64,000 nucleotides of DNA from a virus (IMGVR_UViG_3300044878_000087:130432-194431); one strand, 5' to 3'; positions 3,919 through 55,640 are shown, counted from the stretch's first letter. A program made the numbers and translations. The notes: generated by a model not told the origin, from the sequence alone.

Positions 3919-3938
3919 GGCCTACCTTTGGGTAGGCT
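3919..3938 (+). terminator. hairpin GGCCTACC-TTTG-GGTAGGCT followed by TTTATGCCGTTATCCTATAC; likely terminator of the tRNA cluster
   Basis: GC stem followed by a T-rich tract immediately after the last tRNA. Confidence 0.5.
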
Positions 3939-3981
3939 TTATGCCGTTATCCTATACATTCTTTTAAGATGGATAACGGTA

Positions 3982-4887
3982 ATGTTTGAAGCACTATTAC
4001 TGGGTAAAGGTTCAAGTGCCCCAATTGGTGGTGCATGGTTAAAATTAGGCGGTTCATTTCCAGGCCGTTATGCTGGCGCCGGAGCAGTATCTGGCGGAAA
4101 GATATATTTATTCGGTGGATACAATGCCGGTGGCCCCACTTATTACAATGACATGCAGTGTTATGATCCTGCATTACAGACATGGTCAGCAAAAGCCACT
4201 GGACCAGCAGGGCGATACAACCACGTAATGGTAGAATGTAATGGATACCTATATCTCCATGGCGGTGTTAACGGTGGTGGCTATTTATCAGACATGTGGC
4301 GTTATGATCCTGTAGGTAATACATGGTTAGCTAGGGCTTCTACAGGTAGTGGTGGCCGTGATGGTGGTGCAATGGCGGCAGTCGGGACTAAGATCTATGC
4401 TGTTTGTGGATATGTTCCTAACGTCTATAGTACCGAAATGCGCATATATGACACGGTAGCAAACACCTGGTCATTAGGAACACCACTACCAGCAACAGGG
4501 CGTTCGAATGCCACAATGGTGGCGATTGGTACAAAGCTTTACTTGTATGCTGGTCAAGCGCCATCAATGAATGATTTGTGGTGTTTCGATACGGTGGCTG
4601 GAACATGGACACAACTGGCCGATGGTCCAAGTGCACGTACCAACCATACTGCTACGGTATTGAATGGCAAGATGTATATGCATGGTGGTTCAGGCACAGT
4701 GGAAGGTACATCTGCAAAATTCTATAGCTATGACCCTAACACAAATCTATGGACTACGCTAACGGCCAGTCCTACAGGTAGTCAACGTTCCGATGCTTGC
4801 CTAGTTGCGATGGATGGAAAGATTTATCTTACCGGTGGCTACAACCCACCAACGTACCCTACAGACATTTATCAGTTCACGCCATAA
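3982..4887 (+). CDS. Kelch-repeat beta-propeller protein (about 6 repeats: GG..G...ND...YDP..N.W)
   Basis: repeated Kelch motifs; ATG at 3982 preferred over the TTG at 3928 that falls inside the hairpin box. Confidence 0.75.
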   Translation: MFEALLLGKGSSAPIGGAWLKLGGSFPGRYAGAGAVSGGKIYLFGGYNAGGPTYYNDMQCYDPALQTWSAKATGPAGRYNHVMVECNGYLYLHGGVNGGGYLSDMWRYDPVGNTWLARASTGSGGRDGGAMAAVGTKIYAVCGYVPNVYSTEMRIYDTVANTWSLGTPLPATGRSNATMVAIGTKLYLYAGQAPSMNDLWCFDTVAGTWTQLADGPSARTNHTATVLNGKMYMHGGSGTVEGTSAKFYSYDPNTNLWTTLTASPTGSQRSDACLVAMDGKIYLTGGYNPPTYPTDIYQFTP

Positions 4888-7036: not shown

Positions 7037-7066
7037 TAAAAGAATACTGGCGGTGTCAGTGTATGT
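7037..7066 (+). promoter_or_regulatory. plus-strand promoter-like motif TTAAAAGAATAC-N14-TATGT (variant), upstream of rtcB
   Basis: extended similarity to the 6581 copy over about 40 nt. Confidence 0.35.
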
Positions 7067-7100
7067 AACACTCCCTCTTTCCACTCGCGTGAGGCTTTAT

Positions 7101-8366
7101 ATGAAACAACAAACTCGTACATTCGAAATTCTCGGTGGTGAACCAGAACCAGGTTCTAAACCAATCAAAGGTTGGACCGTTGGTGTTCCCGTAGAACCCG
7201 ATGCAATCAAGCAACTCAAGAACTTGGCAGCTCTGCCATTCATCCAATCCCACCTGGCGGTAATGCCAGACGTGCATGTGGGTAAAGGTGCGACTATCGG
7301 TTCTGTGATCGCTACCAAAGGCGCAATCATTCCAGCAGCCGTAGGCGTTGACATCGGTTGTGGTATGGCGGCTTATCGCCTGAACGCTTCTGCTAAAGAT
7401 CTGCCTGATTCGTTGGGTCACGTTCGTGCAGCTATCGAAGCGGTAATCCCTCATGGCCGTACAGATAACGGCGGGAAGAACGACCGTGGTGCCTTCGGTA
7501 CTGTAAAAGTATTCAACCACCCAGTCAAGGCTGTCCGTGAAGAAGCTGAAAAGCTCAAGCGTGAACTGGAAGTCATCGTTCAGAAATATCCGAAGCTCTC
7601 TAAGGCTGCTGAGCGTGCATGGATGCATATCGGTACTCTCGGCACAGGTAATCACTTCGTAGAGCTGTGCTTGGACGAAGCGGACCGTGTATGGGTAATG
7701 CTGCACTCTGGTTCCCGTGGGATCGGTAACGCAATCGGTACACTGTTCATCAACCTGGCCAAAGAAGAGATGCGCCGCTTCTTTATCAACCTGCCAGATC
7801 AAGAACTCGGCTACTTGCCGTACGGTTCCAAGTACTACGCCGACTACCTGCATGCAGTACAGTGGGCACAACGTTTCGCTGCTCTGAATCGTTCTGTGAT
7901 GATGCATGCTACTTTGGATGCAATTCATCGTACCCTCGGTCTGCCAATCGATTCCGATATGGAAGCGATCAACTGCCACCACAACTACGTATCGGAAGAG
8001 CGTCACTTCGGTGATAACGTTCTGGTAACACGTAAAGGTGCAGTAGCGGCCTATGAAGGTAAGCTCGGGATCATTCCAGGTTCGATGGGCGCTAAGTCTT
8101 TCATCGTTCGTGGTAAAGGCCATCGTGATTCGTTCTGTTCATGTTCGCATGGTGCAGGTCGTGTAATGTCACGTAAGGCAGCAGAGCGTGTGTTCACGCT
8201 AGAGGACCACATTCGTGATACGGCTGGAGTTGAGTGCCGTAAAGACGAAGGCGTCCTAGATGAGACACCAAAGGCTTACAAGAATATCGATGATGTGATG
8301 GCAGCCCAAGCTGAACTGGTTGACATCGTCCATACCCTGAAACAAGTTCTTTGCGTTAAGGGTTGA
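7101..8366 (+). CDS. rtcB: RtcB 3'-phosphate/5'-OH RNA ligase
   Basis: hallmark GTGNHF, CHHNY and SCSHGAGR motifs; RBS GTGAGG before the ATG at 7101 (track start at 7053 is probably too early). Confidence 0.9.
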   Translation: MKQQTRTFEILGGEPEPGSKPIKGWTVGVPVEPDAIKQLKNLAALPFIQSHLAVMPDVHVGKGATIGSVIATKGAIIPAAVGVDIGCGMAAYRLNASAKDLPDSLGHVRAAIEAVIPHGRTDNGGKNDRGAFGTVKVFNHPVKAVREEAEKLKRELEVIVQKYPKLSKAAERAWMHIGTLGTGNHFVELCLDEADRVWVMLHSGSRGIGNAIGTLFINLAKEEMRRFFINLPDQELGYLPYGSKYYADYLHAVQWAQRFAALNRSVMMHATLDAIHRTLGLPIDSDMEAINCHHNYVSEERHFGDNVLVTRKGAVAAYEGKLGIIPGSMGAKSFIVRGKGHRDSFCSCSHGAGRVMSRKAAERVFTLEDHIRDTAGVECRKDEGVLDETPKAYKNIDDVMAAQAELVDIVHTLKQVLCVKG

Positions 8367-44211: not shown

Positions 44212-45567
44212 TTATTCATCAGCCTTCTTTAGCAAATAGCTATTGCTGATGCACTTGAACGACAGGATCTTGTTACGAGCTTTGAACACGAAGCCTTCGC
44301 GGTAGGTACCTTTCTTCTGGTTGAAAGCACGTTGACCTTCAGCCATAGCCAGGATATCTTTCACGGTAGCATCTTTCGGGATCACGAACGACTCGTGTGC
44401 AACAGGAACGTAGGTCAGACCCAGTTCAGCTACGATGACACGAGCTTCATCCGGCAGCAGTTCTTCGTTACCATTGCGGAACACCGAGAACACGTAGAAC
44501 TCATGTTTCTCAACGCCTTCGAAGTTCGACTGGATGTCAGGACCGATCAGCTCACCTTGAACGGTGATGTACTGACCAGTACGAGCTTGGTATGCTTTCA
44601 GCTTCTGGACGACTTCATGTTCTTTCACGTAGCGGGTGAAGTTGTTCTCAGTAACCAAAGCCCCCTTACGCCATTCAGGCCAGTGGATGCGTTTGACTTT
44701 GAACATCTTACGGTTACGTGCCAGGAAAGAACCAGTCCAGTAACGAATCTGATCTAGCAGCGACCACGGTGCAGCATCCCCCAGCGACAGCTCGAAGTTA
44801 CGCGAGCAGACACCGGTACGAACACCACTATCGTCGAGGCAGAACACAGTCATCGAAGAACCATCCAGCTTATAGGTAACTTCGAATTCAGTTCCGTCTT
44901 CTTGAGCCAGAGTGAACGCAACAGTTTTGTTCTGTACGCGATCTTGGTCGGACTTGATCAGTTGACCAGGCCATGGCATCAGCGAACCATCCAGACCTTT
45001 CAGGATGCGACGAACCAACCGACCATACCAATCCGAAGCTGCTACCGCGCCATTACCGTCACGTTCAGTTTGTGGCTTTGGCTCGTACTTCAGGATACCG
45101 AGCTCCAGAGTCAGGTTGGTATCTACTGGCAGATCCTTGTACTTGTCAGGGACCGGAACCAACAGACCTTGCGACAGTTCTTTACGCAGCTTGATGGTAG
45201 ACAGGCGATGGTAGTTCTCACCGTTTACACGACGGTTCGACGAACGACGTTCTTCCAGGAAACCGAAGAGTTCCACGTTCGACAGTGGAAGCAGAGAGTC
45301 GATCTCACAATAAACTGCGCGTTCGCCTTTCTTGTACTCACCGATCTTGACACACAGTTGCCAGCCACCTACAACTGCCAGTTCCAGTGCATCGGCATTA
45401 GGGTGCTTAACCACATCATTGATTTCCACGATACGGGCAAGCTTACGATCTTTTTCTACAACACCGAAACCATCACGGATCGGCTTTTCTTCAACTACAG
45501 GTGCTACAACTGCTTCGGTCATTGCAAGTTCCTCGTGTGATATTGAAACAGATTCCTCTGTAATCAA
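44212..45567 (-). CDS. ATP-dependent RNA ligase fused to an N-terminal tRNA-binding OB-fold (Myf/EMAP-like, KHPNADALELAVVGGWQ) domain
   Basis: nucleotidyltransferase motif I YKLDGSS, motif IV REGFVFK, motif V LSFKCISNSYLLKK; N-terminal KHPNAD tRNA-binding signature. Confidence 0.75.
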   Translation of the reverse strand: MITEESVSISHEELAMTEAVVAPVVEEKPIRDGFGVVEKDRKLARIVEINDVVKHPNADALELAVVGGWQLCVKIGEYKKGERAVYCEIDSLLPLSNVELFGFLEERRSSNRRVNGENYHRLSTIKLRKELSQGLLVPVPDKYKDLPVDTNLTLELGILKYEPKPQTERDGNGAVAASDWYGRLVRRILKGLDGSLMPWPGQLIKSDQDRVQNKTVAFTLAQEDGTEFEVTYKLDGSSMTVFCLDDSGVRTGVCSRNFELSLGDAAPWSLLDQIRYWTGSFLARNRKMFKVKRIHWPEWRKGALVTENNFTRYVKEHEVVQKLKAYQARTGQYITVQGELIGPDIQSNFEGVEKHEFYVFSVFRNGNEELLPDEARVIVAELGLTYVPVAHESFVIPKDATVKDILAMAEGQRAFNQKKGTYREGFVFKARNKILSFKCISNSYLLKKADE

Positions 45568-46824: not shown

Positions 46825-46843
46825 GCCTCCCCATAAGGGAGGC
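46825..46843 (-). terminator. hairpin GCCTCCC-UUAUG-GGGAGGC followed by TTTATTCTGG
   Basis: after the stop of the thymidylate synthase gene. Confidence 0.45.
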
Positions 46844-46852
46844 AGTATGTCG

Positions 46853-48313
46853 TTATACAGCCACAGGTGCTTCAATGGCAGGCTGTGGATTGTAGCCCAC
46901 AACTTCCAAGTCATGATAAGTCATGTCGAGGATCGAAGTACCGATTGGGAGTTTGATGTTCAACCGAGGTAGCTCATTATGCGGTGTGCGCTCTTGTTGT
47001 TCTCTTACCTGATCTAGATGGTTCAGATAAATGTGAGCATCGCCGACCATGTGCACGAGTTCTTCACCGTACATGTTGAATTGATGTGCCAGCTTGTGCG
47101 TCAAAGACGAATAGAACGTCAGGTTGTATGGTGCACCCAAGAACACGTCATTAGAACGCATATAGAAGATGCAAGTCAAGCCACGACGTGGAACATTCAG
47201 TTCATCGAGATAAGCATGGAGTTTATGCTCATCCCGTTTATAAGAACCATCTTCCACATGCATGAACACACCCAATGGATACGGTTCATGTGTCGTATAG
47301 ATGTCAGCACGACTACGCTTTGCGATGTCACTATGCAGCTCATCACGTTCACGCATCCAACGCTTCACGTAAATGTCATAGCGTTTTTCAGCAGACAGCT
47401 CACGCGTCCAGAACTGAATGAACGAGTGGCATGGAGGTAAAGCTTGTTCATCTACATACGCTGGGTTCCATGGGCACAGAATCAAGCGACGGGAATCTGG
47501 ATTGTTTTCCAGATCACGCAATAAGTTAGCTACCTGATCGATCTTACGAGTCATGCAGCGCTCATAACCTGAATCCATTGCAATCGTAAACCCGCGAGCT
47601 TTCATCTTCTCAGTAAGGGCTTCAAATTCTGCAATGGCGATATCTTGCTCTTCTGGATTACTCCACGAACCACACTTGATGTGACGGGTGTCTTCGATGT
47701 TACGGAACATCTCACCGTAGACTTTACCGAGTTCACCATCAACTACTTCTTGATCAGAGATACCCAGAGCTACGAAGAACTTGAACCAGATTGGATCTTC
47801 TTGATCCATCCAACTCATCCAGTTCTTGGCATCCTCGGTTTTGTCGAAAATGCCGTGGTGCTTCTTGATCCCTGGGGTTCCTACGTATTCGTAGATATTA
47901 AAGTCATCGCTTTCATAGACAAGTGTCCATACTGGTACAACGTCAGGCGTAGCACCAATGTCTAATACTACTGGCCGATCCCAACCGAAATGGTTACGCT
48001 TGTAGACACGACGCATTTCTTTCAGCAAACGTGGGCGATAGGTACCCGTACCTTCCAGTACCCATTCATCCCAGATGTTACAGTTGTTCTCTTTCAAGAA
48101 CTTCAGGCGGGTATCACCGGAGATCATCCAGTCTTCTTCGACCTGACCAGTTTTCAGATGAATCTTTTTGGTCGACACTGCAGCCAAGCGATAATCACTG
48201 ATGTCATAACGACGCATAACACCAGGTGCAGAAATTGTACCCGTTTTGGTGCGGTCTTCTTTTTGTGTACCACGATGCAGAACTTCCGTCTGCATAGTCA
48301 AGTAGTCTTTCAC
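46853..48313 (-). CDS. thymidylate synthase family enzyme (ThyA or dUMP hydroxymethylase-like) with a ~110-aa insertion after the NIWDEW motif
   Basis: N-terminal MKDYL..VL..GT.K.DRT.TGT; LPPCHSFIQFW active-site Cys; RSNDVFLGAPYN (Asn suggests uracil specificity). Confidence 0.8.
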   Translation of the reverse strand: MKDYLTMQTEVLHRGTQKEDRTKTGTISAPGVMRRYDISDYRLAAVSTKKIHLKTGQVEEDWMISGDTRLKFLKENNCNIWDEWVLEGTGTYRPRLLKEMRRVYKRNHFGWDRPVVLDIGATPDVVPVWTLVYESDDFNIYEYVGTPGIKKHHGIFDKTEDAKNWMSWMDQEDPIWFKFFVALGISDQEVVDGELGKVYGEMFRNIEDTRHIKCGSWSNPEEQDIAIAEFEALTEKMKARGFTIAMDSGYERCMTRKIDQVANLLRDLENNPDSRRLILCPWNPAYVDEQALPPCHSFIQFWTRELSAEKRYDIYVKRWMRERDELHSDIAKRSRADIYTTHEPYPLGVFMHVEDGSYKRDEHKLHAYLDELNVPRRGLTCIFYMRSNDVFLGAPYNLTFYSSLTHKLAHQFNMYGEELVHMVGDAHIYLNHLDQVREQQERTPHNELPRLNIKLPIGTSILDMTYHDLEVVGYNPQPAIEAPVAV

Positions 48314-48336: not shown

Positions 48337-48921
48337 TCATTGCCACAGTGCGTCATTTTTCCAGGTTGGGTGTTCTGGATTGAATACCACACAGAGATCA
48401 CGATTATGATGCAGTACCAATCGTGGCCAATCAGTAACTTTGTTCAGCGCTATTTGTAACTGTGTCAAGGTATAGTCGTAGATATCCAGATGACCACTGA
48501 GTTGGATACCTGCGGACAAATTCGGTACACGGTATACTCCATCACCTAATTCTAGATAGAGTGGTTTTTCCATGTGGTCTTTTGTCAGCGTCAGTCGAAC
48601 TTTCTCAAATTCAATCCGAGCCAAGTTCTGAATACGGATCTCACCCGTCGTGGTGTTGAACTGAATGGTGGAGATCAGTTCATCGAATGGTAAGCGATTA
48701 CGATAGATGTTCACATGCTTACGTTCACCATAGCTGGAGTACTGTACGGTAAACCCACCTTTAGGCATAGCGCCTTCTTTCGTCAACAATGTACCGCTAA
48801 CGAAATCTACGTTATTACCGATCAGTTCTGCCATGACCATTGCAGCACTGGTAAAGTGGATATCCACATCGAACTCAGTACGTTCACCTGTTGGTTTTTC
48901 ACAACCTGCACAGCAACCCAT
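48337..48921 (-). CDS. hypothetical protein (194 aa)
   Basis: RBS TAGGAG. Confidence 0.5.
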   Translation of the reverse strand: MGCCAGCEKPTGERTEFDVDIHFTSAAMVMAELIGNNVDFVSGTLLTKEGAMPKGGFTVQYSSYGERKHVNIYRNRLPFDELISTIQFNTTTGEIRIQNLARIEFEKVRLTLTKDHMEKPLYLELGDGVYRVPNLSAGIQLSGHLDIYDYTLTQLQIALNKVTDWPRLVLHHNRDLCVVFNPEHPTWKNDALWQ

Positions 48922-48955
48922 TTAATGCTCCTAATGACAAAAAAGAAAATAGGAT

Positions 48956-48973
48956 GGGGACCCGAAGGTCCCC
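48956..48973 (-). terminator. hairpin GGGGACC-UUCG-GGTCCCC followed by ATCCTATTTTCTTTTTTG
   Basis: GC stem plus a U-run after the stop of the NAMPT-like gene. Confidence 0.5.
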
Positions 48974-48979
48974 GTCCGA

Positions 48980-50812
48980 TTATGCGGCTTCTTTGAGTTC
49001 TGTGAAGAACGATTCGCGTGCGATCGACGCTTCGATACGTTCACGCATCTCAGACAACTTCACTTGACGCAGGAACTTACCATTACGGAACAACGGTTTC
49101 AGTTCACCCGATCCTTCCATCAGATTATCCCAGGTCATTTCGACTTCCTGTTCGAGACGGTAGTTGTGATCAGCATCCCGTACTACGCGCAGGAAGCCTT
49201 TAGCAGACTTCTTGGACAGTGCGGTCTTCGGATCTTTGTACAGCTCGATCAGTTCATCGTTCACTTCACAAGCAGTGGCCTTCATCGCCATGCCGAAAGT
49301 ATCACGGGTGTTCATCTGGTAGGTATAGGAACCGATACCCAGTACAACGTTCGACGATGCGAAGCCTTTCTCCGCCAGACGACGGAAGATTTCTTCAGTA
49401 CGTTCTACAGTGATCGAGTCACCATAGATCAGACCGATGTATTCATTCAGGACTTTGTAGCCCTTGGTGTTTACATGGCCACCGAAAGAAGCCCACAGCG
49501 ATTCGATAGCACCACGAGCTTCCACTTCACGCATTTCACGACCGAGGAATTCCTCAGCAGTGGAGTTGCTGAACTGGTGCGGGTTGCGGTGATTCTGGAG
49601 TTCGTAGTATTTGTCACCGATACGGATAGCTTCACCGTTGACAGCTTCCCAACCGAAGTCGTGCAACGCGGTCTTGAATGCTTCCATCGAGCCGAATTCG
49701 ACAAGATAGAAACCGCAGATCACGTGAACTGGATTACCCGAGTCTGGACGCACAACAACTTTGGCCAGACCGATCTCGTTCTTGATACGGCTTTCGATCT
49801 CAGCACGGATCGAAGGCAGCAGGTCTGCGATCACCGACCAGAAGTCGAACGAGTCACATACCAACGAGATGATACCGGTCTTCACTTTCTGCAGGATGAT
49901 TTCCAGAATGTATTCACGCTCACATTCCAGTTTCAGCTTGTCGACGAAAGCAGCCCAGTTCTCAGGAGCCACGGAATCCAGCTTGGAATCTTTGTCCAGC
50001 CATTTCAGCTTTTGTTTCAGGCGGGTCAGGATATTCGCAGTAGCCACGGCGTGTTCGGTAGCAGTAACAGAACCAGCAATGAGTTCCACGTCCGAATTCG
50101 CGTGATACAGTGCTTCCAGGTAATCGATAGCCGGGATGGTATCGGTACCAGCGAAAGGTAGCATGTGGCCAGCATTGGAACGACCAGCAGCTTCTGGACC
50201 AGGCATACCACGGAACGAGAAGTCGTGACCTTGCCAGATGATGTGATCACGGTTATCACAGGTACGCTCAGCCCAGTCTTCCATAACCCGACGATATTCG
50301 TAGGCGATGGTAGCGTTGGTGATCGACTGCCAGTTATACGAACTGGTGATGGTTTCCAGGTAGTTAACCAACCAGTAGTGTTCTTTATTATCATCGGAAC
50401 TGTAGACAACCCACAGCGGGATACCGATGTTAACACGTTCACCTTCTTCCAGTGCCAACACCGTGACAGGCAGGTAACCCAGGTCGTGCAGCTTAGCGAT
50501 CTGTTTGGTGGAGATGACGTCTTTACCACAAGCGTTATCGAAACGACGCTTGGTTTCTTTGATTGCTTTCTTCTTCTCTACTTGGAAGAAGGTACGATCC
50601 CACAGCTCAACCAGTTCTTGCCAGGTGCCATAGAGACCGAAGTTCACGACTTTGTTATCGTAGTGAACGGAGCAGGATTTCGAGTTCAGGAAGTTCTTCG
50701 CCGAACGCGGGGTGAAGTTTGAATACTTCCGGGTCGTGCCTTCCGGATACAGAGGACCGTGACCAGGTTTGTAGAAGTCGGTACCAGTTGCTGCTTTAAG
50801 CCATTGTGCCAT
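48980..50812 (-). CDS. NAMPT/PBEF-family phosphoribosyltransferase (610 aa); candidate Namat (nicotinamide ADPR transferase) or NadV
   Basis: matches to NAMPT motifs: HDFSFRG...AGTDT, RPDSGNP, IYGDS, LGIGSYTYQ; sits next to the Prs-like gene. Confidence 0.85.
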   Translation of the reverse strand: MAQWLKAATGTDFYKPGHGPLYPEGTTRKYSNFTPRSAKNFLNSKSCSVHYDNKVVNFGLYGTWQELVELWDRTFFQVEKKKAIKETKRRFDNACGKDVISTKQIAKLHDLGYLPVTVLALEEGERVNIGIPLWVVYSSDDNKEHYWLVNYLETITSSYNWQSITNATIAYEYRRVMEDWAERTCDNRDHIIWQGHDFSFRGMPGPEAAGRSNAGHMLPFAGTDTIPAIDYLEALYHANSDVELIAGSVTATEHAVATANILTRLKQKLKWLDKDSKLDSVAPENWAAFVDKLKLECEREYILEIILQKVKTGIISLVCDSFDFWSVIADLLPSIRAEIESRIKNEIGLAKVVVRPDSGNPVHVICGFYLVEFGSMEAFKTALHDFGWEAVNGEAIRIGDKYYELQNHRNPHQFSNSTAEEFLGREMREVEARGAIESLWASFGGHVNTKGYKVLNEYIGLIYGDSITVERTEEIFRRLAEKGFASSNVVLGIGSYTYQMNTRDTFGMAMKATACEVNDELIELYKDPKTALSKKSAKGFLRVVRDADHNYRLEQEVEMTWDNLMEGSGELKPLFRNGKFLRQVKLSEMRERIEASIARESFFTELKEAA

Positions 50813-50830
50813 GTTGAATCAATTCCTTGT

Positions 50831-51775
50831 TTACAGGTGCGTAAATGCGATCAGGTTTTCAGGATTGGTTTCACGTTCTGGAAGATCAACGTGATAGGTG
50901 TTCATGGTGTAGACTTTGTCGAAGACGTCAGTCAGGACCTGGACACCAGCAGAGAAGATGCCGTGAGTTACATACAGCGACAACGAACCCAGATCGTAGT
51001 CCTTCAGAACTTTTGCCAGTTCAGTAAAGGTACGGCCACCATCACAGATGTCGTCAACGATCAACAGGTCTTCACCAGCCAGATCAGTCAACTCCATAAC
51101 TTCATTGCCAGCAACGAAGCTATCGACGGTAGTACGCAGGATCTTGCCGTCACGAGTATTACGAACTTTGTTGGCGTATACTACACCTTTAAAGCCGAAC
51201 TCTTTGGCTAGCGATTCTACTTTCTTGCGTGCCCCAGCATCAGGCGCTACCAGAATGGTATTCGAAGGATCGATGCGATGATCACTCGCCCAGTCCAGCA
51301 TGTGCTTACGGAACAGATCGTTCAGCGAGAACACGCGTGCATTGTTCAGTACCGAGCCGATTACGTCTGAGTGTGGATCGGTCAGAATCACACGTTCTAC
51401 GTCCAGGCTGTTGATGACATGAGCAAATGCCTTAGCCGAGTTCGCTTCACCTGGATTGCACACACGGTCTTGACGAGCGTATGGCATGTAACCGATGTCC
51501 AACGTGATCGATGGGTTGGCCACAACGGCGTTCTCACGGATAGCGTTCACAGCCATGATCAGAGACCATGCTGCAGCAGCGTCGGGTAATGCGGCAACGA
51601 TACGATAGCTTTCGCCTTTGTACCACTGACCTTCACGACCCAGGCCATCTTCACGAGGGATCGATACGTTTACTTCACCTGCAGGAAACATCCGACCGTC
51701 ACGAATTTTGGATGGGAATGTATGTGTCACCCCCAAACCTTCTTGCGAAACGATCAACTTCAAATTCTGACTCAT
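50831..51775 (-). CDS. ribose-phosphate pyrophosphokinase family protein (Prs/Adps-like)
   Basis: IGYMPYARQDR and the PRPP-binding motif LLIVDDICDGGRTF; 314 aa. Confidence 0.85.
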   Translation of the reverse strand: MSQNLKLIVSQEGLGVTHTFPSKIRDGRMFPAGEVNVSIPREDGLGREGQWYKGESYRIVAALPDAAAAWSLIMAVNAIRENAVVANPSITLDIGYMPYARQDRVCNPGEANSAKAFAHVINSLDVERVILTDPHSDVIGSVLNNARVFSLNDLFRKHMLDWASDHRIDPSNTILVAPDAGARKKVESLAKEFGFKGVVYANKVRNTRDGKILRTTVDSFVAGNEVMELTDLAGEDLLIVDDICDGGRTFTELAKVLKDYDLGSLSLYVTHGIFSAGVQVLTDVFDKVYTMNTYHVDLPERETNPENLIAFTHL

Positions 51776-52113
51776 GCAGCTTCCTTTTCTTCCGCTTTGT
51801 GAATTGCAGTGAACACCAGGACAACATCACCCAGTTTTGTTTTGATATTGCTTTCAGCTTCATACCGGCAAGTGGTCAGGTCCATGTCGAGATGGGTTTC
51901 CTGATCACCACAACGTACCAGGAATCGTGCAACCTTCCCGAGTTCTACACCGCGTGCAATCACTTCGACTTCATTCGTCAGAATGTTATCGCCATGGAAA
52001 GCACCAACGAACGTAACTACATCGCACCCAGCATCACGTTGCAGGAAACGATCTTTGTGATAGGTCATTTCTTCTGGGTAAACACTGAAGTCATGACGTA
52101 CGAAATTGTCCAT
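51772..52113 (-). CDS. hypothetical protein (113 aa), coupled between the AAA+ ATPase and the Prs-like gene
   Basis: ATGA overlap with the Prs-like start. Confidence 0.5.
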   Translation of the reverse strand: MDNFVRHDFSVYPEEMTYHKDRFLQRDAGCDVVTFVGAFHGDNILTNEVEVIARGVELGKVARFLVRCGDQETHLDMDLTTCRYEAESNIKTKLGDVVLVFTAIHKAEEKEAA

Positions 52114-52122
52114 GTTATCCTC

Positions 52123-53490
52123 TTATGCAGCCGATACTAACTCCTGTGTGGGAGCAGTGCTTTTGTTCTTGAGTGGGCGCGGTGGCTCTGGTTGTATAGC
52201 GTAGTTCTCCGCGACGTATTTGTCGTCCAACGTTCCCAGCTTATCAATGAAAGCCAGGTGATCGTTAGGATGCTCCATGAAGATCCCTGCCAAAGTAGAA
52301 GCGGGAGTATCTGGGTACATTACATTACGATCGTAAGTAGGATTATCATACATCGTATCGATATAGCGCTTGATCTCAGGATCTTTAAGCGGCAGCACTT
52401 CGATCAGCTTGTTCACACGAGACGGACGGTAGACCGCTGGGTCGATCAGTTCCAGGTGGTTAGTAGTCAGTACGATAATAATGTCATCGAGCTCTACAAC
52501 ACCTTGCAGGACGTTGAGGAAGGTACTGAGCTGGATCTCACAGTCCATCAACAACGCTTCTGGTTTCTTATCAGCTCCACCGCCATCGAAGTCGGAGATC
52601 TCCATCTTCTTCGGACCGGTACGACGATGCAATGTCTTCACATCATCGAAGTCTTCAATGACCAGCATATCACCCGGCGAGAGCTTACCCATTAGTTCAA
52701 CGAGTTGTCTGCCATGGGACGCCAGGTTCAAGAAGTGGATGTCACGTTTGTACTTACGGGCACCACGTTTGATAAGCGACGTTTTACCAGTACCCGGAGG
52801 ACCGTGGAGAACGATGGTGTGCTTGTAAGCCAAACCACGTTTACGATACCAGGATTCATTGTTGATGTACCAGTCAATAGAACCGAAGAAGTCTTTCTCT
52901 ACTTCGGGATCGATAACTAGCGTTTCATCAACATCTAAACGCAAACGACCCTGATAACTCCAGCCCTCGTTATGAGGACCGTAGATACGGATGGAATCTT
53001 TGCATGGTTTGATTCGGAACTCTTCCACTAGTTCTTCGAATGGTTGTGTGGTTCGACCGAAAGTGTAGAGGGTGAACTCTTCCTTCTCGATATCGGTACC
53101 AGACGAATCCAAACGACGTACGTTGAACCAGAAGTAACGACCTTTCCAGATAAACCAGTGGAAGCCACCACCCGGACCGAATGCAGGATTATCACGATCG
53201 AAGGTTACCCGACGATTGCGATCGTACTTAGCCCATTTCGAATTGGAGAACCAACGCATGAACTCAGCGTAGTTCTGCAAGTCCATGGAGTACGTACCAG
53301 CACGCGTGAACGTCATCGATGAAATCGTGTTACGCTTGACGAAGTTCCACGCCGAAGTGGGGATAGTCCGCCCCAAATAACCCAACAGACCCATGAGACC
53401 TAACGTCATGAAACCTTTGACGGTAGAGTCCCCTGAGCTGAGCATTTCAAGCGTCTTGTGAAAGAACGCCAAGATGTCCGTGATTAACAT
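52123..53490 (-). CDS. BCS1-like membrane-anchored AAA+ ATPase
   Basis: N-terminal TM helix; Walker A LHGPPGTGKTS; Walker B MLVIEDFDD; BCS1-type architecture. Confidence 0.8.
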   Translation of the reverse strand: MLITDILAFFHKTLEMLSSGDSTVKGFMTLGLMGLLGYLGRTIPTSAWNFVKRNTISSMTFTRAGTYSMDLQNYAEFMRWFSNSKWAKYDRNRRVTFDRDNPAFGPGGGFHWFIWKGRYFWFNVRRLDSSGTDIEKEEFTLYTFGRTTQPFEELVEEFRIKPCKDSIRIYGPHNEGWSYQGRLRLDVDETLVIDPEVEKDFFGSIDWYINNESWYRKRGLAYKHTIVLHGPPGTGKTSLIKRGARKYKRDIHFLNLASHGRQLVELMGKLSPGDMLVIEDFDDVKTLHRRTGPKKMEISDFDGGGADKKPEALLMDCEIQLSTFLNVLQGVVELDDIIIVLTTNHLELIDPAVYRPSRVNKLIEVLPLKDPEIKRYIDTMYDNPTYDRNVMYPDTPASTLAGIFMEHPNDHLAFIDKLGTLDDKYVAENYAIQPEPPRPLKNKSTAPTQELVSAA

Positions 53491-54206
53491 TATTCCATCC
53501 CAGGCATTAGTAGTACGGTTGTGTCGAAACCATCAGCACGAATGAAGTCAAAGAATGCACCTTCCATATCAGCTTCTTCTTCTTCTTCTGGTGCCCCGAG
53601 TTCTTTCAGGTGGTTATCGCAATAAGCAACAACCGCTTCTGTTTGGCGTCTCACCAGTCTTAGCATTTCTGCCGTAAGTAATAGCACTACAGTGATGGTC
53701 AAGTGCGTGGTGGTACGTGGGTTATCGTAATGATGATCTTCCCGCGTATCCAGCCCTGCACCAGCTACCACCATATCGAAGTTCTCACGGAGCTGATCAT
53801 AATGCATCAACGGCTGCGAGCGAAGCCCAGCTGTTTCTACTCTGATCCCCCAGGACATGACGTGATTAATCGTTGCGGCATTTACCATGTCATGTACAGC
53901 GCCGTACGAATTGGAGATCTCGTTCAGATCGGGCCAATACGTTTTGATGTCTTCTGGTAATACCCACAGGTTACCATCACCCATACGAGCAACAGGAATA
54001 GTGTGGATATTAACCTGGATCAGTTCTTTTGAATCGATCGATAGCTTTTCTGGTAGCCATGCCAATTGATCATACAGCAGATCATTCAAGTCGTACTTGT
54101 TGATCTGTGTGAATTCTGGTTTGTTGCTCAACTCACGAAAGATCTGGCCATCACGCTGAAAGAGATCACGCTTGACGATGTGGGCCTTTTGTTCCACCAG
54201 GTTCAC
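53490..54206 (-). CDS. hypothetical protein (238 aa), coupled upstream of the AAA+ ATPase
   Basis: 1-nt stop/start overlap. Confidence 0.55.
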   Translation of the reverse strand: MNLVEQKAHIVKRDLFQRDGQIFRELSNKPEFTQINKYDLNDLLYDQLAWLPEKLSIDSKELIQVNIHTIPVARMGDGNLWVLPEDIKTYWPDLNEISNSYGAVHDMVNAATINHVMSWGIRVETAGLRSQPLMHYDQLRENFDMVVAGAGLDTREDHHYDNPRTTTHLTITVVLLLTAEMLRLVRRQTEAVVAYCDNHLKELGAPEEEEEADMEGAFFDFIRADGFDTTVLLMPGME

Positions 54207-54919
54207 GCTTTACCTCCTTGGTGTACTTGCCAGCCAGCTGGCAGACTACGACGGGTTTTAGGTGCGGGCAATGCGGTACCACTTACATTGCCGAAGTTCA
54301 GCAATGGGGCAGCCTGTTCTTTAGCAGCAGGTTTTTCAGCACGCTGTGCAATGGTCGGACGGCGCATGAGTTCAACGTTGGTTGGCAGTTTATTACCTTC
54401 CTCATCATGGGTCTGTAGTTCGATACCGTGGACAGCGTAAGGTGCAGCTTCAATTGGTTTAGCGGCAGAGAAGGTTGGCGGCATGGTGTCTTGTGCAGAA
54501 CCGGGCCATACCACACCACTTTCATTCAGCATTTTGTGCAGATCTTGAACTTGCTGAATGGCGTACAGTTCACGCTCGTAGTTCGGAATCTGGAGAATGC
54601 TTTCATGTTGGTCACAGGTCGGCACAACGAAAGCCAGTACAGCTTCGTATGGAACTTCCAGAGAAACGTCTGCACCATTGAAGCCACACATGAAACTGAA
54701 GTTGTCTTCATTGTAGCGGAAGTTGCGTGTTGCTTGTGCAGCGATGTTCAAACGAATCTGATACAACCCGTTCACTTGTGGTTCCAACAAACCGACATCA
54801 AACATCCGAGCATCTGCGATGATGTGGATGCGACTGGAAATACCCATGTCGACGAACCATTGGATCATCGCGTTCATAATTACACGGCACATGTTGGTAT
54901 CATTTTGTACTTGATTCAC
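54203..54919 (-). CDS. hypothetical protein (238 aa), first gene of the AAA+ operon
   Basis: ATGA overlap. Confidence 0.55.
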   Translation of the reverse strand: MNQVQNDTNMCRVIMNAMIQWFVDMGISSRIHIIADARMFDVGLLEPQVNGLYQIRLNIAAQATRNFRYNEDNFSFMCGFNGADVSLEVPYEAVLAFVVPTCDQHESILQIPNYERELYAIQQVQDLHKMLNESGVVWPGSAQDTMPPTFSAAKPIEAAPYAVHGIELQTHDEEGNKLPTNVELMRRPTIAQRAEKPAAKEQAAPLLNFGNVSGTALPAPKTRRSLPAGWQVHQGGKA

Positions 54920-54929
54920 TTTTTATTCC

Positions 54930-55640
54930 TTAGTTGAATTGCCAGTTGGGATATTTGGAACTTTTTGCACGTCTTTTAGCTGATGACTTTGAAATACCAA
55001 ATGCCTTAGCTGCAAAGGAGGCACTTGGATAAACAATCCCATCAACGCTAATTGGATAACCTAACTTTTCTGTCGGTGCTGTACGTTGCCGATCTGTTAC
55101 TTCTACAAGTGCAGCTTTCGCTTTTCTCTCAGGTGTCCATGATTTAAGACTTGCCTTAGACATAGCTTCACGTCTTTCTGGTGACCATTGTTCTTTAACA
55201 GCTATACTTTTCTTAGCTCGTTCTTCATCAGTCCAGCGTTCTGATGATACCGCACTATGGGCTAATCTTTTATCGTCAGTCCACGCGATTGCCATTGCTG
55301 TCGCATGTTCTGCTTTTCTTTCAATCGTCCACGATGCAGATATTGCTTCTTTAACTACATCAGTGCGTGGCCGCCCCACTTGGTTCATCATGGCGATATT
55401 GTCGACATTATCATGGATCAAATGTAATTCGTGGGCGCGTGCATCTTCTATAGTCGCTTGCTCAGTAAACTCCCAGATTAGTTTCTTATCCAGATTAAAG
55501 TTGTACTGTAGCATTTCGTTAACATGTACTCCTCGCCGAAGATCGGACAAGTGGTAATGTCGACGTTTGATAAAGTTTTCAGTGCTGCCGATATAAAACA
55601 TCCCGGTAAAGGGATGGGTGATTCTGTATGTACCGATCAT
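54930..55640 (-). CDS. Seg-like GIY-YIG homing endonuclease with C-terminal repeated W(T/S)xER(K/R) NUMOD-like DNA-binding motifs
   Basis: GTYRITHPFTGMFYIGSTENF... GIY-YIG signature; four or more W.xER repeats; RBS AAGGAG; own promoter copy at 55677. Confidence 0.75.
   Translation of the reverse strand: MIGTYRITHPFTGMFYIGSTENFIKRRHYHLSDLRRGVHVNEMLQYNFNLDKKLIWEFTEQATIEDARAHELHLIHDNVDNIAMMNQVGRPRTDVVKEAISASWTIERKAEHATAMAIAWTDDKRLAHSAVSSERWTDEERAKKSIAVKEQWSPERREAMSKASLKSWTPERKAKAALVEVTDRQRTAPTEKLGYPISVDGIVYPSASFAAKAFGISKSSAKRRAKSSKYPNWQFN

What the first reader, a model, noticed from the sequence alone, without database searches (positions are those of the whole stretch)
48980..51775. Adjacent Prs-like pyrophosphokinase and NAMPT-family transferase: NARP1-like NAD+ reconstitution (anti-defence) pair
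A PRPP-synthetase-family gene (IGYMPYARQDR; LLIVDDICDGGRTF) sits directly upstream of a 610-aa NAMPT/PBEF-family gene (RPDSGNP, HDF.FRG, GTDT), co-directional and 19 nt apart. This pairing matches the phage NAD+ reconstitution pathway 1 (ADPR pyrophosphokinase Adps plus nicotinamide-ADPR transferase Namat). That pathway rebuilds NAD+ from the ADPR and nicotinamide released by NADase defences such as Thoeris, DSR or Sir2-type systems. The NAMPT-like protein is about 100 aa longer than canonical NAMPT. The pair is embedded in an operon with a BCS1-like AAA+ ATPase upstream and thymidylate synthase downstream.
Basis: partly seen in the sequence, partly recalled or inferred. Interest (0 to 1): 0.75.

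Follow-up and report, generated by a model that had tools for sequence, protein, structure and literature searches.

The report
Phage NAD+-rebuilding gene pair (NARP1)
This is an ordinary new copy of the published phage NARP1 gene pair (Adps plus Namat), which rebuilds NAD+ from the fragments left by bacterial NAD-destroying defences, found in an undescribed Pseudomonas-type jumbo phage.

Summary
Two co-directional minus-strand genes lie 18 nt apart: a 314-aa Prs-like gene (50831..51775) and a 610-aa Nampt-like gene (48980..50812).

The NARP1 interpretation is also supported.
- The Nampt-like protein's best solved-structure match is SpβL1 Namat itself.
- It clusters (100% bootstrap) with the verified Namats of SpβL1, FADO and Bas63, apart from KVP40-type Nampt.
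- It keeps every catalytic residue and has the Namat clamp motif (GSYTYQMNTRD).
- The Prs-like protein fails every curated Prs cut-off. It carries the Adps-type PP loop (DDICDGGRTF, identical to Bas63 Adps), the catalytic Lys203, and lacks the Prs C-terminal module.
- Orthologues in phages D6 (75% and 85% identity) and Psa21 are already listed as NARP1 by Osterman et al.

The extra ~100 aa are two folded insertions shared with Bas63 Namat and over 100 jumbo-phage homologues, so they are not unusual.

- A conserved terminator-like hairpin follows namat, so thyA is probably not in the same operon.
- Two unannotated ORFs flank the pair.

Caveat: H. ducreyi NadV, a genuine Nampt, nests inside the Namat clade, so the call rests on clamp residues plus the linked Adps. 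No biochemistry was done.

Verdict: new member of a known kind, low interest.

The parts
50831..51775 (-). adps: ADP-ribose pyrophosphokinase (ADPR-PP synthetase), 314 aa, Prs fold
   Evidence: phrog_619 E 8.6e-73. Below every curated Prs cut-off in NCBIfam (TIGR01251 105.1 vs 113; equivalogs 41-88 bits vs 296-536). An HMM of 16 Namat-linked Adps built without this lineage scores it 242.6 bits against 136.4 for E. coli Prs. ICP1-Adps functional residues are conserved. 85.3% identical to D6 Adps, which is listed in Osterman Table S1.
51026..51055 (-). Adps PP loop and acceptor-ribose aspartates, D241-D242-I243-C244-D245-G246-G247-R248-T249-F250
   Evidence: Identical to the Bas63 Adps loop (DDICDGGRTF). 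ICP1 has DDICDGAASF and E. coli Prs has DDMIDTGGTL. PMC13586617 describes the PP loop as the remodelled ATP-donor site. Coordinates verified.
51167..51169 (-). Adps catalytic lysine K203 (equivalent to ICP1 K185 and SpβL1 K162)
   Evidence: Alignment. K185A and K162A abolish activity (PMC13586617; Osterman 2024).
50813..50830 (-). 18-nt adps-namat spacer with an SD-like AAGGA
   Evidence: Sequence ACAAGGAATTGATTCAAC.
48980..50812 (-). namat: nicotinamide ADPR-transferase, 610 aa, Nampt fold
   Evidence: Best PDB sequence hits are 9w5x and 9w5w (SpβL1 Namat), E 2e-106, against about 1e-43 for human Nampt. AF2 model pLDDT 93.5; Foldseek top hits are 9w5x and 9w5w with TM 0.94 on the target. 100% bootstrap clade with SpβL1, FADO and Bas63 Namat. 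All catalytic residues conserved.
49301..49333 (-). Namat selectivity-clamp helix (SCH) motif G494-S-Y-T-Y-Q-M-N-T-R-D504
   Evidence: Fits GSXΦXΦXΦTRD from PMC12774641, with aromatics at positions 3 and 5 and Met at position 7. Nampt-type proteins have GGGLLQ..(T/N/D)RD and HdNadV has GAQTYQRNTRD. Position 7 among the 120 nearest homologues: Y 54, H 47, C 8, F 5, M 4, V 1, L 1.
50657..50704 (-). Namat selectivity-clamp loop (SCL), S37-A-K39-N-F41 ... D52, eight residues longer than in SpβL1
   Evidence: The third residue is Lys, as in Bas63 and FADO, and is followed by a conserved aromatic (F41). Pattern [SA][DAN][RK]x[FY] in the motif-bearing homologues. HdNadV has SNEQA.
49904..50032 (-). 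Namat insertion 1 (residues 261-303), a helical hairpin extension
   Evidence: Absent from SpβL1 and FADO Namat and from Nampt. Present in D6, Psa21, PA1C and RP12, and partly in Bas63. The AF2 model has helices 254-274 and 283-309 with pLDDT above 90. Variable in sequence: mean entropy 2.42 bits against about 1.1-1.2 in the flanking core segments.
49529..49711 (-). Namat insertion 2 (residues 368-428), a small alpha/beta subdomain
   Evidence: Present in the jumbo-phage and Bas63 Namats and absent from SpβL1, FADO and Nampt. The AF2 model predicts strands and helices with 10-residue pLDDT block means of 79-97. It is the most variable region (entropy 3.06 bits; length 6-100 aa among 72 homologues).
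48940..48975 (-). Terminator-like hairpin GGGGACC-TTCG-GGTCCCC followed by a T-rich tract, 6 nt after the namat stop codon
   Evidence: Found by the terminator scan. An equivalent hairpin follows namat in D6, Psa21 (stem kept by compensatory changes), PA1C and RP12.
51772..52113 (-). 113-aa ORF whose stop overlaps the adps start (ATGA). Possibly co-translated; role unknown; not shown to belong to the pathway

Best explanation
The two genes form a NARP1 (NAD+ reconstitution pathway 1) module of an undescribed phiKZ-like jumbo phage related to Pseudomonas phages D6 and Psa21. When a host NADase defence (SIR2, TIR or SEFIR type) cleaves NAD+ into ADP-ribose and nicotinamide, the pathway rebuilds it in two steps. 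[quoted passage not shown] Second, Namat (48980..50812) displaces that pyrophosphate with nicotinamide, which regenerates NAD+ directly without passing through NMN. Shown here: gene structure, adjacency, family and clade placement, conservation of the published catalytic and substrate-selectivity residues, a confident Namat-like fold, and orthology to catalogued NARP1 loci. Inferred: the actual substrates and the anti-defence phenotype, by homology to SpβL1, Bas63, FADO and ICP1 enzymes that were tested experimentally by others.
For: (1) Namat side. The best PDB sequence match is SpβL1 Namat (9w5x, 9w5w; E 2e-106; its residue numbering reproduces the published G360-D361-A362, G390-S391-F392, Y396 and T398-R399-D400). 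The Foldseek top hits are the same entries. In an NJ tree the protein falls in a 100% bootstrap clade with SpβL1, FADO and Bas63 Namat, apart from KVP40, RB43, Matisse and phiRSL1 Nampt. Identity is 37-43% to verified Namats and 28-29% to Nampt-type proteins. All nicotinamide-, ribose- and phosphate-binding residues are conserved: D12, Y14, F198, S199, R201, D224, A251, H254, R355, D357, G464, D465. The clamp motif is GSYTYQMNTRD and the SCL reads SAKNF.
(2) Adps side. It fails all curated Prs cut-offs. An Adps HMM gives 242.6 bits against 136.4 for E. coli Prs. The ICP1 residues F18, R87, H121, D161, K185, D212, D213, I214, C215, D216 and F221 map to F30, R101, H135, D179, K203, D241, D242, I243, C244, D245 and F250. 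The PP loop is identical to that of Bas63. The Prs alpha11-alpha12 tail is absent.
(3) Linkage. The genes are 18 nt apart and co-directional. The same order is seen in D6, Psa21, RVTF4, PA1C, RP12, Bas63, FADO, SpβL1 and three metagenomic loci. phrog_12872 is hit by both proteins, the Adps on profile positions 44-223 and the Namat on 255-539, as expected if fused Adps-Namat proteins exist.
(4) D6, Psa21, PA1C and RP12 genes appear in Osterman's Adps table, and the D6, Psa21 and PA1C Namats are labelled 'Adps-associated'.
(5) No Nmnat (CTP_transf_like), NUDIX, Macro or RyR domain was found in any other ORF of the 64-kb window.
Against: No enzymology or phage genetics exists for this protein pair or for any member of its jumbo-phage subclade. 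The tested systems share only 25-43% identity. SCH position 7 is Met instead of the aromatic residue that contacts adenine in SpβL1 (Y396). ICP1 F92 and F223 are C106 and E252 here, although most Gram-negative phage Adps, including Bas63, also differ at these positions. The SCL is 8 residues longer than in the crystallised enzyme, and its stacking residue (probably F41) is inferred, not modelled with a ligand. H. ducreyi NadV, a genuine Nampt, nests inside the Namat clade, and SpβL1 Namat makes NMN from PRPP in vitro, so clade membership alone does not fix the substrate. Only 64 kb of a roughly 300-kb genome is visible, so an Nmnat elsewhere cannot be excluded from the window alone.
Confidence: 0.9

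Rival explanations
1. Conventional salvage (NARP2-like or host-assisted). The Prs-like enzyme makes PRPP from ribose-5-phosphate, and the Nampt-like enzyme makes NMN from PRPP and nicotinamide. NMN is then adenylylated by a phage Nmnat encoded outside the window, or by host NadR or NadD.
For: The Pfam, PHROG and NCBIfam names all read Prs and Nampt. SpβL1 Namat can make NMN from PRPP in vitro. HdNadV, a real Nampt, sits within the Namat clade. Met replaces the aromatic residue at clamp position 7. Most of the genome is unseen.
Against: The Prs-like protein is below every curated Prs threshold and has the remodelled Adps PP loop, the 'DPHS' motif and a truncated C-terminus. SpβL1 Adps gave no product with ribose-5-phosphate. 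The Nampt-like protein has the aromatic residues at clamp positions 3 and 5 and the Lys in the SCL, which HdNadV and KVP40-type Nampt lack. There is no Nmnat or NUDIX domain in the window. Osterman et al. found no phage encoding both NARP1 and NARP2, and 94% of NARP2-type Nampt phages carry an Nmnat.
Confidence: 0.06
2. Extended or modified NARP1. The pair works as NARP1 but with an additional lineage-specific partner, either the translationally coupled 113-aa beta-protein or the BCS1-like AAA+ ATPase upstream. That partner widens the range of NAD-derived substrates or inhibits a defence protein, by analogy with Adpp (Macro) and RyDEP (RyR).
For: NARP1 operons are known to acquire accessory genes. 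The 113-aa ORF overlaps the adps start as ATGA and is conserved (63-85% identity) in all relatives of this lineage. It folds confidently (pLDDT 83).
Against: The ORF is confined to one phage lineage, where overall synteny is conserved anyway, so co-occurrence carries little information. It has no Macro, RyR, Nudix or other ligand-binding fold match. The more distant NARP1 loci (PA1C, RP12, P0039, P0113) lack both this ORF and the AAA+ gene beside adps.
Confidence: 0.04

Closest known systems
NARP1 of Escherichia phage Bas63 (JohannRWettstein) genes 79-80 (Osterman et al. 2024, bioRxiv 10.1101/2024.02.11.579819)
   Same: Same gene order (adps then namat). Identical Adps PP loop DDICDGGRTF. Long Namat (593 aa) carrying insertion 2 and part of insertion 1. 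SCL with Lys at the third position. Clamp motif GSYTYQYMTRD. Deleting the pair sensitises that phage to SIR2-HerA.
   Different: Only 33% (Adps) and 37% (Namat) identity. The Bas63 SCL is shorter, with Trp directly after the Lys. Clamp position 7 is Tyr in Bas63 and Met here. The phage type (Felixounavirus, 87 kb) and the flanking genes differ.
SpβL1 Namat (PDB 9w5x, 9w5w; PMC12774641) and SpβL1 Adps
   Same: Best solved-structure match. All catalytic residues and the GSXΦXΦXΦTRD motif are shared. Biochemically shown to prefer ADPR-PP and to make NAD+.
   Different: SpβL1 Namat is 491 aa and lacks both insertions. Its SCL uses Arg40. SpβL1 Adps belongs to the Gram-positive subtype (PP loop DDLSSFGGTF) and is only 25% identical.
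Vibrio phage ICP1 Adps (PMC13586617)
   Same: The acceptor-groove residues, catalytic Lys, the 'DDICD' start of the PP loop and the loss of Prs alpha11-alpha12 are all conserved.
   Different: The PP loop tail is GAAS in ICP1 and GGRT here. F92 is Cys and F223 is Glu here. The window protein has a longer N-terminal segment.
Orthologues in Pseudomonas jumbo phages D6 (OQ363659), Psa21 (MK552327) and RVTF4 (PQ015378)
   Same: Identical local gene order: AAA+, 113-aa ORF, adps, namat, hairpin, 194-aa ORF, thyA, then RNA ligase further on. 72-75% (Namat) and 44-85% (Adps) identity. Already catalogued as NARP1 but annotated in GenBank as Prs and Nampt.
   Different: The window phage has Met instead of Tyr or Phe at clamp position 7. 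It also has an extra GIY-YIG homing endonuclease at 54930..55640.
KVP40 NadV plus NatV (NARP2), and Haemophilus ducreyi NadV (PDB 9ke8)
   Same: Same Nampt fold and catalytic core.
   Different: NARP2 Nampt has GGGLLQ instead of the aromatic clamp, a short SCL-equivalent loop, no linked Adps and a linked Nmnat. HdNadV has GAQTYQRNTRD and SNE in the SCL, so it lacks the adenine-stacking residues.

Membership tests
Namat (nicotinamide ADPR-transferase) | Nampt-like catalytic core intact (SpβL1 D13, Y15, F189, R192, D215, A242, catalytic His, R306, D308, G360, D361) | tested here: met
   D12, Y14, F198, R201, D224, A251, H254, R355, D357, G464 and D465 in the window protein.
Namat (nicotinamide ADPR-transferase) | SCH consensus GSXΦ1XΦ2XΦ3TRD, with aromatic X at positions 3 and 7 contacting adenine | tested here: inconclusive
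   GSYTYQMNTRD. The frame, Φ residues (T, Q, N) and aromatics at positions 3 and 5 are met, but position 7 is Met. Position 7 is not aromatic (C, M, V or L) in 14 of the 120 nearest Adps-clade-like homologues, and is His in 47. The effect on selectivity is untested. Single clamp mutants of SpβL1 lose only 1.3- to 1.7-fold activity.
Namat (nicotinamide ADPR-transferase) | SCL with Arg, Lys or Tyr at the third position supplying (or followed by) an adenine-stacking residue | tested here: met
   S37-A38-K39-N40-F41. Lys is at the third position, and an aromatic two residues later is conserved across the clade. Whether it actually stacks was not modelled with a ligand.
Namat (nicotinamide ADPR-transferase) | Phylogenetic placement in the Adps-associated clade, separate from Nmnat-associated Nampt | tested here: met
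   100% bootstrap. Caveat: HdNadV also falls in this clade.
Namat (nicotinamide ADPR-transferase) | Prefers ADPR-PP over PRPP and makes NAD+ directly | not testable with these tools
   Requires enzymology.
Adps (ADPR-PP synthetase) | Prs fold but not a canonical Prs | tested here: met
   TIGR01251 scores 105.1 against a cut-off of 113, and all equivalog models are far below cut-off. The Adps HMM gives 242.6 bits against 136.4 for E. coli Prs.
Adps (ADPR-PP synthetase) | Catalytic beta-hairpin lysine (ICP1 K185, SpβL1 K162) and acceptor residues R87, H121, D161, D212, D213 | tested here: met
   K203, R101, H135, D179, D241 and D242.
Adps (ADPR-PP synthetase) | Remodelled PP loop conserved among Adps homologues | tested here: met
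   CDGGRT, identical to Bas63, phi92, PVPSE1 and others. E. coli Prs has IDTGGT.
Adps (ADPR-PP synthetase) | Loss of the C-terminal alpha11-alpha12 filament and regulatory module of Prs | tested here: met
   The window protein ends about 20 residues before E. coli Prs in the alignment and has no counterpart of ...[24 protein letters not shown].
Adps (ADPR-PP synthetase) | Adenine-contacting aromatics F18 and F92 | tested here: inconclusive
   F30 is conserved. F92 is C106 here, and is C or M in most Gram-negative phage Adps including Bas63.
NARP1 system | adps and namat within 10 genes of each other (Osterman's criterion) | tested here: met
   Adjacent, 18 nt apart, same strand.
NARP1 system | Counteracts NAD+-depleting defences in vivo | not testable with these tools
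   Requires phage genetics.
NARP2 (Nampt + Nmnat) | Nampt of the KVP40 clade plus a phage Nmnat | tested here: not met
   The protein is outside the KVP40, RB43, Matisse and phiRSL1 clade. No CTP_transf_like or NUDIX hit was found in 85 other window ORFs. The rest of the genome is unseen.
NARP1-AP / RyDEP-extended NARP1 | Macro-domain phosphatase (Adpp) or RyR-domain glycosidase (RyDEP) in the operon | tested here: not met
   The flanking ORFs have no Pfam hit. The 113-aa model is all-beta. No Macro or RyR hit anywhere in the window.
NARP3 (PnuC + NadR) | PnuC-like transporter and NadR-like enzyme | tested here: not met
   These are different protein families, and none was found in the window.

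The most novel reading that the evidence does not exclude
The jumbo-phage Namat subclade may differ functionally from the crystallised SpβL1 enzyme. Its members are 575-690 aa, with a longer SCL, a helical-hairpin insertion and a hypervariable alpha/beta insertion, none of which has been described. The insertions, and/or the lineage-specific 113-aa beta-protein translationally coupled to adps, could add a new property to NARP1: a different acceptor or donor range, regulation, interaction with Adps, or targeting relative to the phage nucleus.
Probability: 0.1. Interest if true: 0.5.

Novelty: new member of a known kind. Interest (0 to 1): 0.15.

Why it matters
It matters little beyond annotation. 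NARP1 was described in 2024, both enzymes now have structures, and it is catalogued in 859 phage genomes, including this phage's nearest relatives. The practical value is that public records (D6, Psa21, RVTF4, PA1C, RP12) and the Pfam, PHROG and NCBIfam names still call these genes Prs and Nampt. That would mislead metabolic interpretation of jumbo phages. The residue-level checks used here give a simple way to re-annotate them: the Adps PP loop and C-terminal truncation, plus the aromatic positions of the Namat clamp. The HdNadV result is a useful warning that tree placement alone cannot separate Namat from Nampt. The two folded, hypervariable insertions in long Namats are uncharacterised and could be worth a structural look.

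Tried and rejected
(1) Pairwise identity as an Adps/Prs discriminator. The window Adps is 24.8% identical to SpβL1 Adps and 26.6% to E. coli Prs, so identity says nothing. I replaced it with curated cut-offs, a lineage-excluded HMM and residue mapping.
(2) The Adps NJ tree has only one Prs outgroup and weak internal support. I do not use it as evidence of clade membership.
(4) Flanking ORFs as NARP1 accessories. tblastn and the 5.8-billion-protein search found the 113-aa and 194-aa ORFs only in the D6, Psa21 and RVTF4 lineage. The 113-aa model has no informative fold match. A Foldseek hint that it resembles a 194-aa Psa21 protein (E 3.9e-4) was not supported by profile-profile comparison (hhalign probability 0.1%). 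Rejected as unsupported.
(5) The ~900-aa Namat homologues as Adps-Namat fusions. BLAST with Adps found nothing. Pfam shows a split NAPRTase domain and, in P0073, a weak Hint_2 hit, so an intein is more likely.
(6) Sigma-70 promoter scan. There were fewer hits than in shuffled sequence (8 against 17.1), and phiKZ-like phages use their own RNA polymerases, so it is uninformative. The phiKZ early-promoter-like TATATTAC occurs 5 times in the window (1.5 expected) but not near the pair.
(7) Counting clamp variants in Osterman's Table S2 gave only small numbers, because the stored sequences are truncated. I replaced it with the 120-homologue count.
(8) NARP3 was checked and dismissed, since it consists of PnuC plus NadR.
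Full report
OBSERVATION. One is a 314-aa gene at 50831..51775 and the other a 610-aa gene at 48980..50812. They are separated by 18 nt (ACAAGGAATTGATTCAAC, with an SD-like AAGGA), not 19. All quoted peptide motifs are present. Pfam, PHROGs and NCBIfam assign the first protein to the Prs/phosphoribosyltransferase fold (phrog_619, E 8.6e-73). They assign the second to the NAPRTase/Nampt family (phrog_448, E 3e-172; PRK09198, 438.7 bits).

CONTEXT. The region is 72-76% identical at the DNA level to the Pseudomonas syringae jumbo phages D6 and Psa21 (about 305 kb), and nothing closer exists in the phage collection. The exact Namat protein is found only on a 133-kb contig assembled from SRA run SRR35899549, and a 90%-identical protein sits on a 208-kb JGI metagenome contig. 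A weak PhiKZ major-capsid Pfam hit elsewhere in the window fits a phiKZ-like phage. Local gene order is identical in D6, Psa21 and RVTF4: two hypothetical genes, BCS1-like AAA+, 113-aa ORF, Prs-like, Nampt-like, 194-aa ORF, long ThyA, then an RNA ligase further on.

WHAT IS KNOWN. Osterman et al. (bioRxiv 10.1101/2024.02.11.579819) showed that phage 'Prs + Nampt' pairs are really Adps and Namat. Adps converts ADPR and ATP to ADPR-PP. Namat converts ADPR-PP and nicotinamide to NAD+. Together they form NARP1, which defeats SIR2-HerA, DSR1, DSR2, type I Thoeris and SEFIR and is present in 859 phages (4.3% of those surveyed). A separate Nampt clade (KVP40 NadV) works with an Nmnat as NARP2. Their supplementary tables already list the D6, Psa21, PA1C and RP12 genes in the Adps table and the D6, Psa21 and PA1C Namats as 'Adps-associated'. 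Later work gave structures and specificity rules for Namat (PMC12774641) and for Adps (PMC13586617). It also described the accessory genes Adpp (Macro domain) and RyDEP (RyR domain). NARP3 is PnuC plus NadR and is not relevant here.

NAMAT TESTS. The best solved-structure sequence match is 9w5x and 9w5w at E 2e-106. Their residue numbering reproduces the published SpβL1 Namat contacts, so this is the biochemically characterised enzyme. Human and other Nampt score only about 1e-43. An AlphaFold2 model built on 72 homologues is confident (pLDDT 93.5, pTM 0.92), and its best Foldseek matches are the same Namat entries, with TM 0.94 on the target.

I aligned the protein with reference proteins taken from annotated phage records: SpβL1, FADO, Bas63, KVP40, RB43, Matisse and phiRSL1, the last of which has an adjacent Nmnat-Nudix gene. 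The window protein is 43%, 40% and 37% identical to the three verified Namats and 28-29% identical to Nampt-type proteins. It sits in a 100% bootstrap clade with the Namats. Every catalytic-core residue is conserved.

The clamp helix reads GSYTYQMNTRD. This fits the published Namat signature GSXΦXΦXΦTRD, whereas Nampt-type proteins read GGGLLQ.. at the same place. The one deviation is Met500 at position 7, which is Tyr396 in SpβL1. It is a real substitution (ATG here, TAC in D6). It is not exceptional either. Among the 120 nearest homologues, positions 3 and 5 are always aromatic, while position 7 is Y 54, H 47, C 8, F 5, M 4, V 1 and L 1. A Met-bearing homologue only 44% identical also has an Adps-like gene directly upstream. 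The clamp loop reads S-A-K-N-F, with the expected Lys at the third position followed by a clade-conserved aromatic.

A CAUTION FOUND ON THE WAY. The third-best PDB hit, 9ke8, is Haemophilus ducreyi NadV. This protein is known as a genuine nicotinamide phosphoribosyltransferase (my own knowledge; the PDB entry is a complex with NMN). It is 57.5% identical to SpβL1 Namat and nests inside the Namat clade with 90% bootstrap support. However, its clamp reads GAQTYQRNTRD and its SCL reads SNE, so the adenine-stacking residues are missing. Tree placement alone therefore cannot separate Namat from Nampt. For this window the call rests on the clamp residues and on the linked Adps.

ADPS TESTS. Pairwise identity is uninformative: 24.8% to SpβL1 Adps and 26.6% to E. 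coli Prs. Three other tests are informative.
- The protein fails every curated Prs cut-off. TIGR01251 scores 105.1 against a cut-off of 113, and the equivalog models score 41-88 bits against cut-offs of 296-536.
- An HMM built from 16 Namat-linked Adps proteins, with the window, D6 and Psa21 left out, scores it 242.6 bits against 136.4 for E. coli Prs.
- I mapped it onto ICP1 Adps, whose retrieved sequence reproduces all residue numbers named in the paper. This mapping shows F30, R101, H135, D179, the catalytic K203 and D241-D242-I243 all conserved. The PP loop C-D-G-G-R-T-F is identical to that of Bas63 Adps, whereas E. coli Prs has I-D-T-G-G-T-L. The Prs C-terminal alpha11-alpha12 module, called a defining loss of the family, is absent. 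ICP1 F92 and F223 are Cys and Glu here, as in most Gram-negative phage Adps including Bas63.

LINKAGE. The order adps then namat, with a short spacer, recurs in every locus examined: D6, Psa21, RVTF4, PA1C, RP12, Bas63, FADO, SpβL1 and three metagenomic contigs. phrog_12872 is matched by both proteins, the Adps on profile positions 44-223 and the Namat on 255-539, which indicates that fused versions exist. No other ORF of the window has an Nmnat, NUDIX, Macro or RyR domain.

THE EXTRA 100 RESIDUES. They come from three places:
- an 8-residue longer SCL;
- insertion 1 (residues 261-303);
- insertion 2 (residues 368-428).

Both insertions occur in D6, Psa21, PA1C and RP12. Insertion 2 and part of insertion 1 also occur in Bas63 Namat (593 aa), whose pathway works in vivo. 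The 5.8-billion-protein search lists well over a hundred 575-690-aa homologues, many on contigs longer than 200 kb. In the model, insertion 1 lengthens a helical hairpin and insertion 2 forms a small alpha/beta subdomain. Both are much more variable than the core, with entropy 2.4 and 3.1 bits against about 1.0, and insertion 2 ranges from 6 to 100 aa. Neither Namat paper discusses them. They are typical of the subfamily but remain uncharacterised.

OPERON STRUCTURE. The 113-aa ORF's stop codon overlaps the adps start as ATGA. Six nucleotides after the namat stop codon lies GGGGACC-TTCG-GGTCCCC followed by a T-rich tract. An equivalent hairpin follows namat in D6, in Psa21 (where compensatory changes keep the stem), in PA1C and in RP12. 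This points to a transcript end or a processing or stability element between namat and the 194-aa ORF and thyA. The AAA+ gene is beside NARP1 only in the closest relatives. PA1C and RP12 have RtcB directly upstream of adps, the P0039 locus has RtcB five genes upstream, and the P0113 locus has ThyA three genes upstream.

VERDICT. This is a NARP1 module, a new member of a known, published and widespread kind, in an undescribed relative of phages whose orthologues are already catalogued. Confidence in the mechanism is about 0.9. It is limited by the lack of any biochemistry in this subclade, by the Met at clamp position 7, and by the HdNadV example. Interest is low (0.15).

Noticed in passing
window 46853..48313 (-): The thymidylate synthase is 486 aa, about 200 aa longer than canonical ThyA. 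The Pfam match is split, with profile positions 1-155 spread over residues 2-305. D6 (466 aa), Psa21 (473 aa) and RVTF4 (474 aa) have the same long form. A more distant relative (L017) has a 782-aa ThyA with intein domains.
   Followed up: partly
window 7053..8366 (+) and 44212..45567 (-); L005, L011, L017: The window has an RtcB tRNA-splicing ligase (E 5.8e-127) and a PHA02142-type RNA ligase. In PA1C and RP12, RtcB is directly upstream of adps. In RP12 and PA1C an RNA ligase lies two to three genes downstream of namat, and it also recurs near the pair in L017 and L018. NARP1 thus recurs next to RNA-repair genes in jumbo phages. The cause (shared ancestry or a counter-defence island) is unresolved.
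   Followed up: partly
window 48940..48975 (-): A GC-rich TTCG-tetraloop hairpin with a T-tract lies immediately after namat. It is conserved in five jumbo-phage loci, and Psa21 keeps the stem through compensatory changes. A second similar element follows thyA (46843..46825).
   Followed up: partly
window 54930..55640 (-): A GIY-YIG / I-TevI-type homing endonuclease (236 aa) is present here but absent from the corresponding position in D6 and Psa21. It is probably a recent mobile insertion.
   Followed up: no
window 54203..54919 (-): A 238-aa protein with an SspB-like (ClpXP adaptor) N-terminal domain (Pfam E 2.3e-07). An SspB-like gene also lies next to namat in the distant locus L017.
   Followed up: no
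window 48337..48921 (-): The 194-aa ORF downstream of namat starts with MGCCxxC. Cys3, Cys4 and Cys7 are invariant in all four orthologues, although RVTF4 is only about 28% identical overall. No family or function is known.
   Followed up: partly
window 52123..53490 (-): A BCS1_N + AAA ATPase (phrog_7485, function unknown), annotated in D6 and Psa21 as 'cell division protein FtsH' although it has no protease domain. It gives a weak NCBIfam hit to the anti-phage ATPase IteA over the P-loop only.
   Followed up: no
window 3928..4887 (+): A 319-aa Kelch-repeat beta-propeller protein (Kelch_1, E 4.8e-54), which is unusual in phages. The window also has a Big_2 domain protein and a DUF4262 protein.
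   Followed up: no
proteins P0030, P0073, P0106 (homologues, not in the window): Namat homologues of about 900 aa have roughly 300 extra residues splitting the NAPRTase domain. P0073 gives a weak Hint_2 hit, which suggests intein-containing Namat genes. They are not Adps fusions.
   Followed up: partly
PDB 9ke8 (H. ducreyi NadV) against the Namat clade: The cellular NadV of H. ducreyi is 57.5% identical to SpβL1 Namat and nests within the phage Namat clade, but it lacks the adenine-clamp residues. It may be a phage-derived Namat that reverted to, or was retained for, PRPP-dependent salvage.
   Followed up: partly
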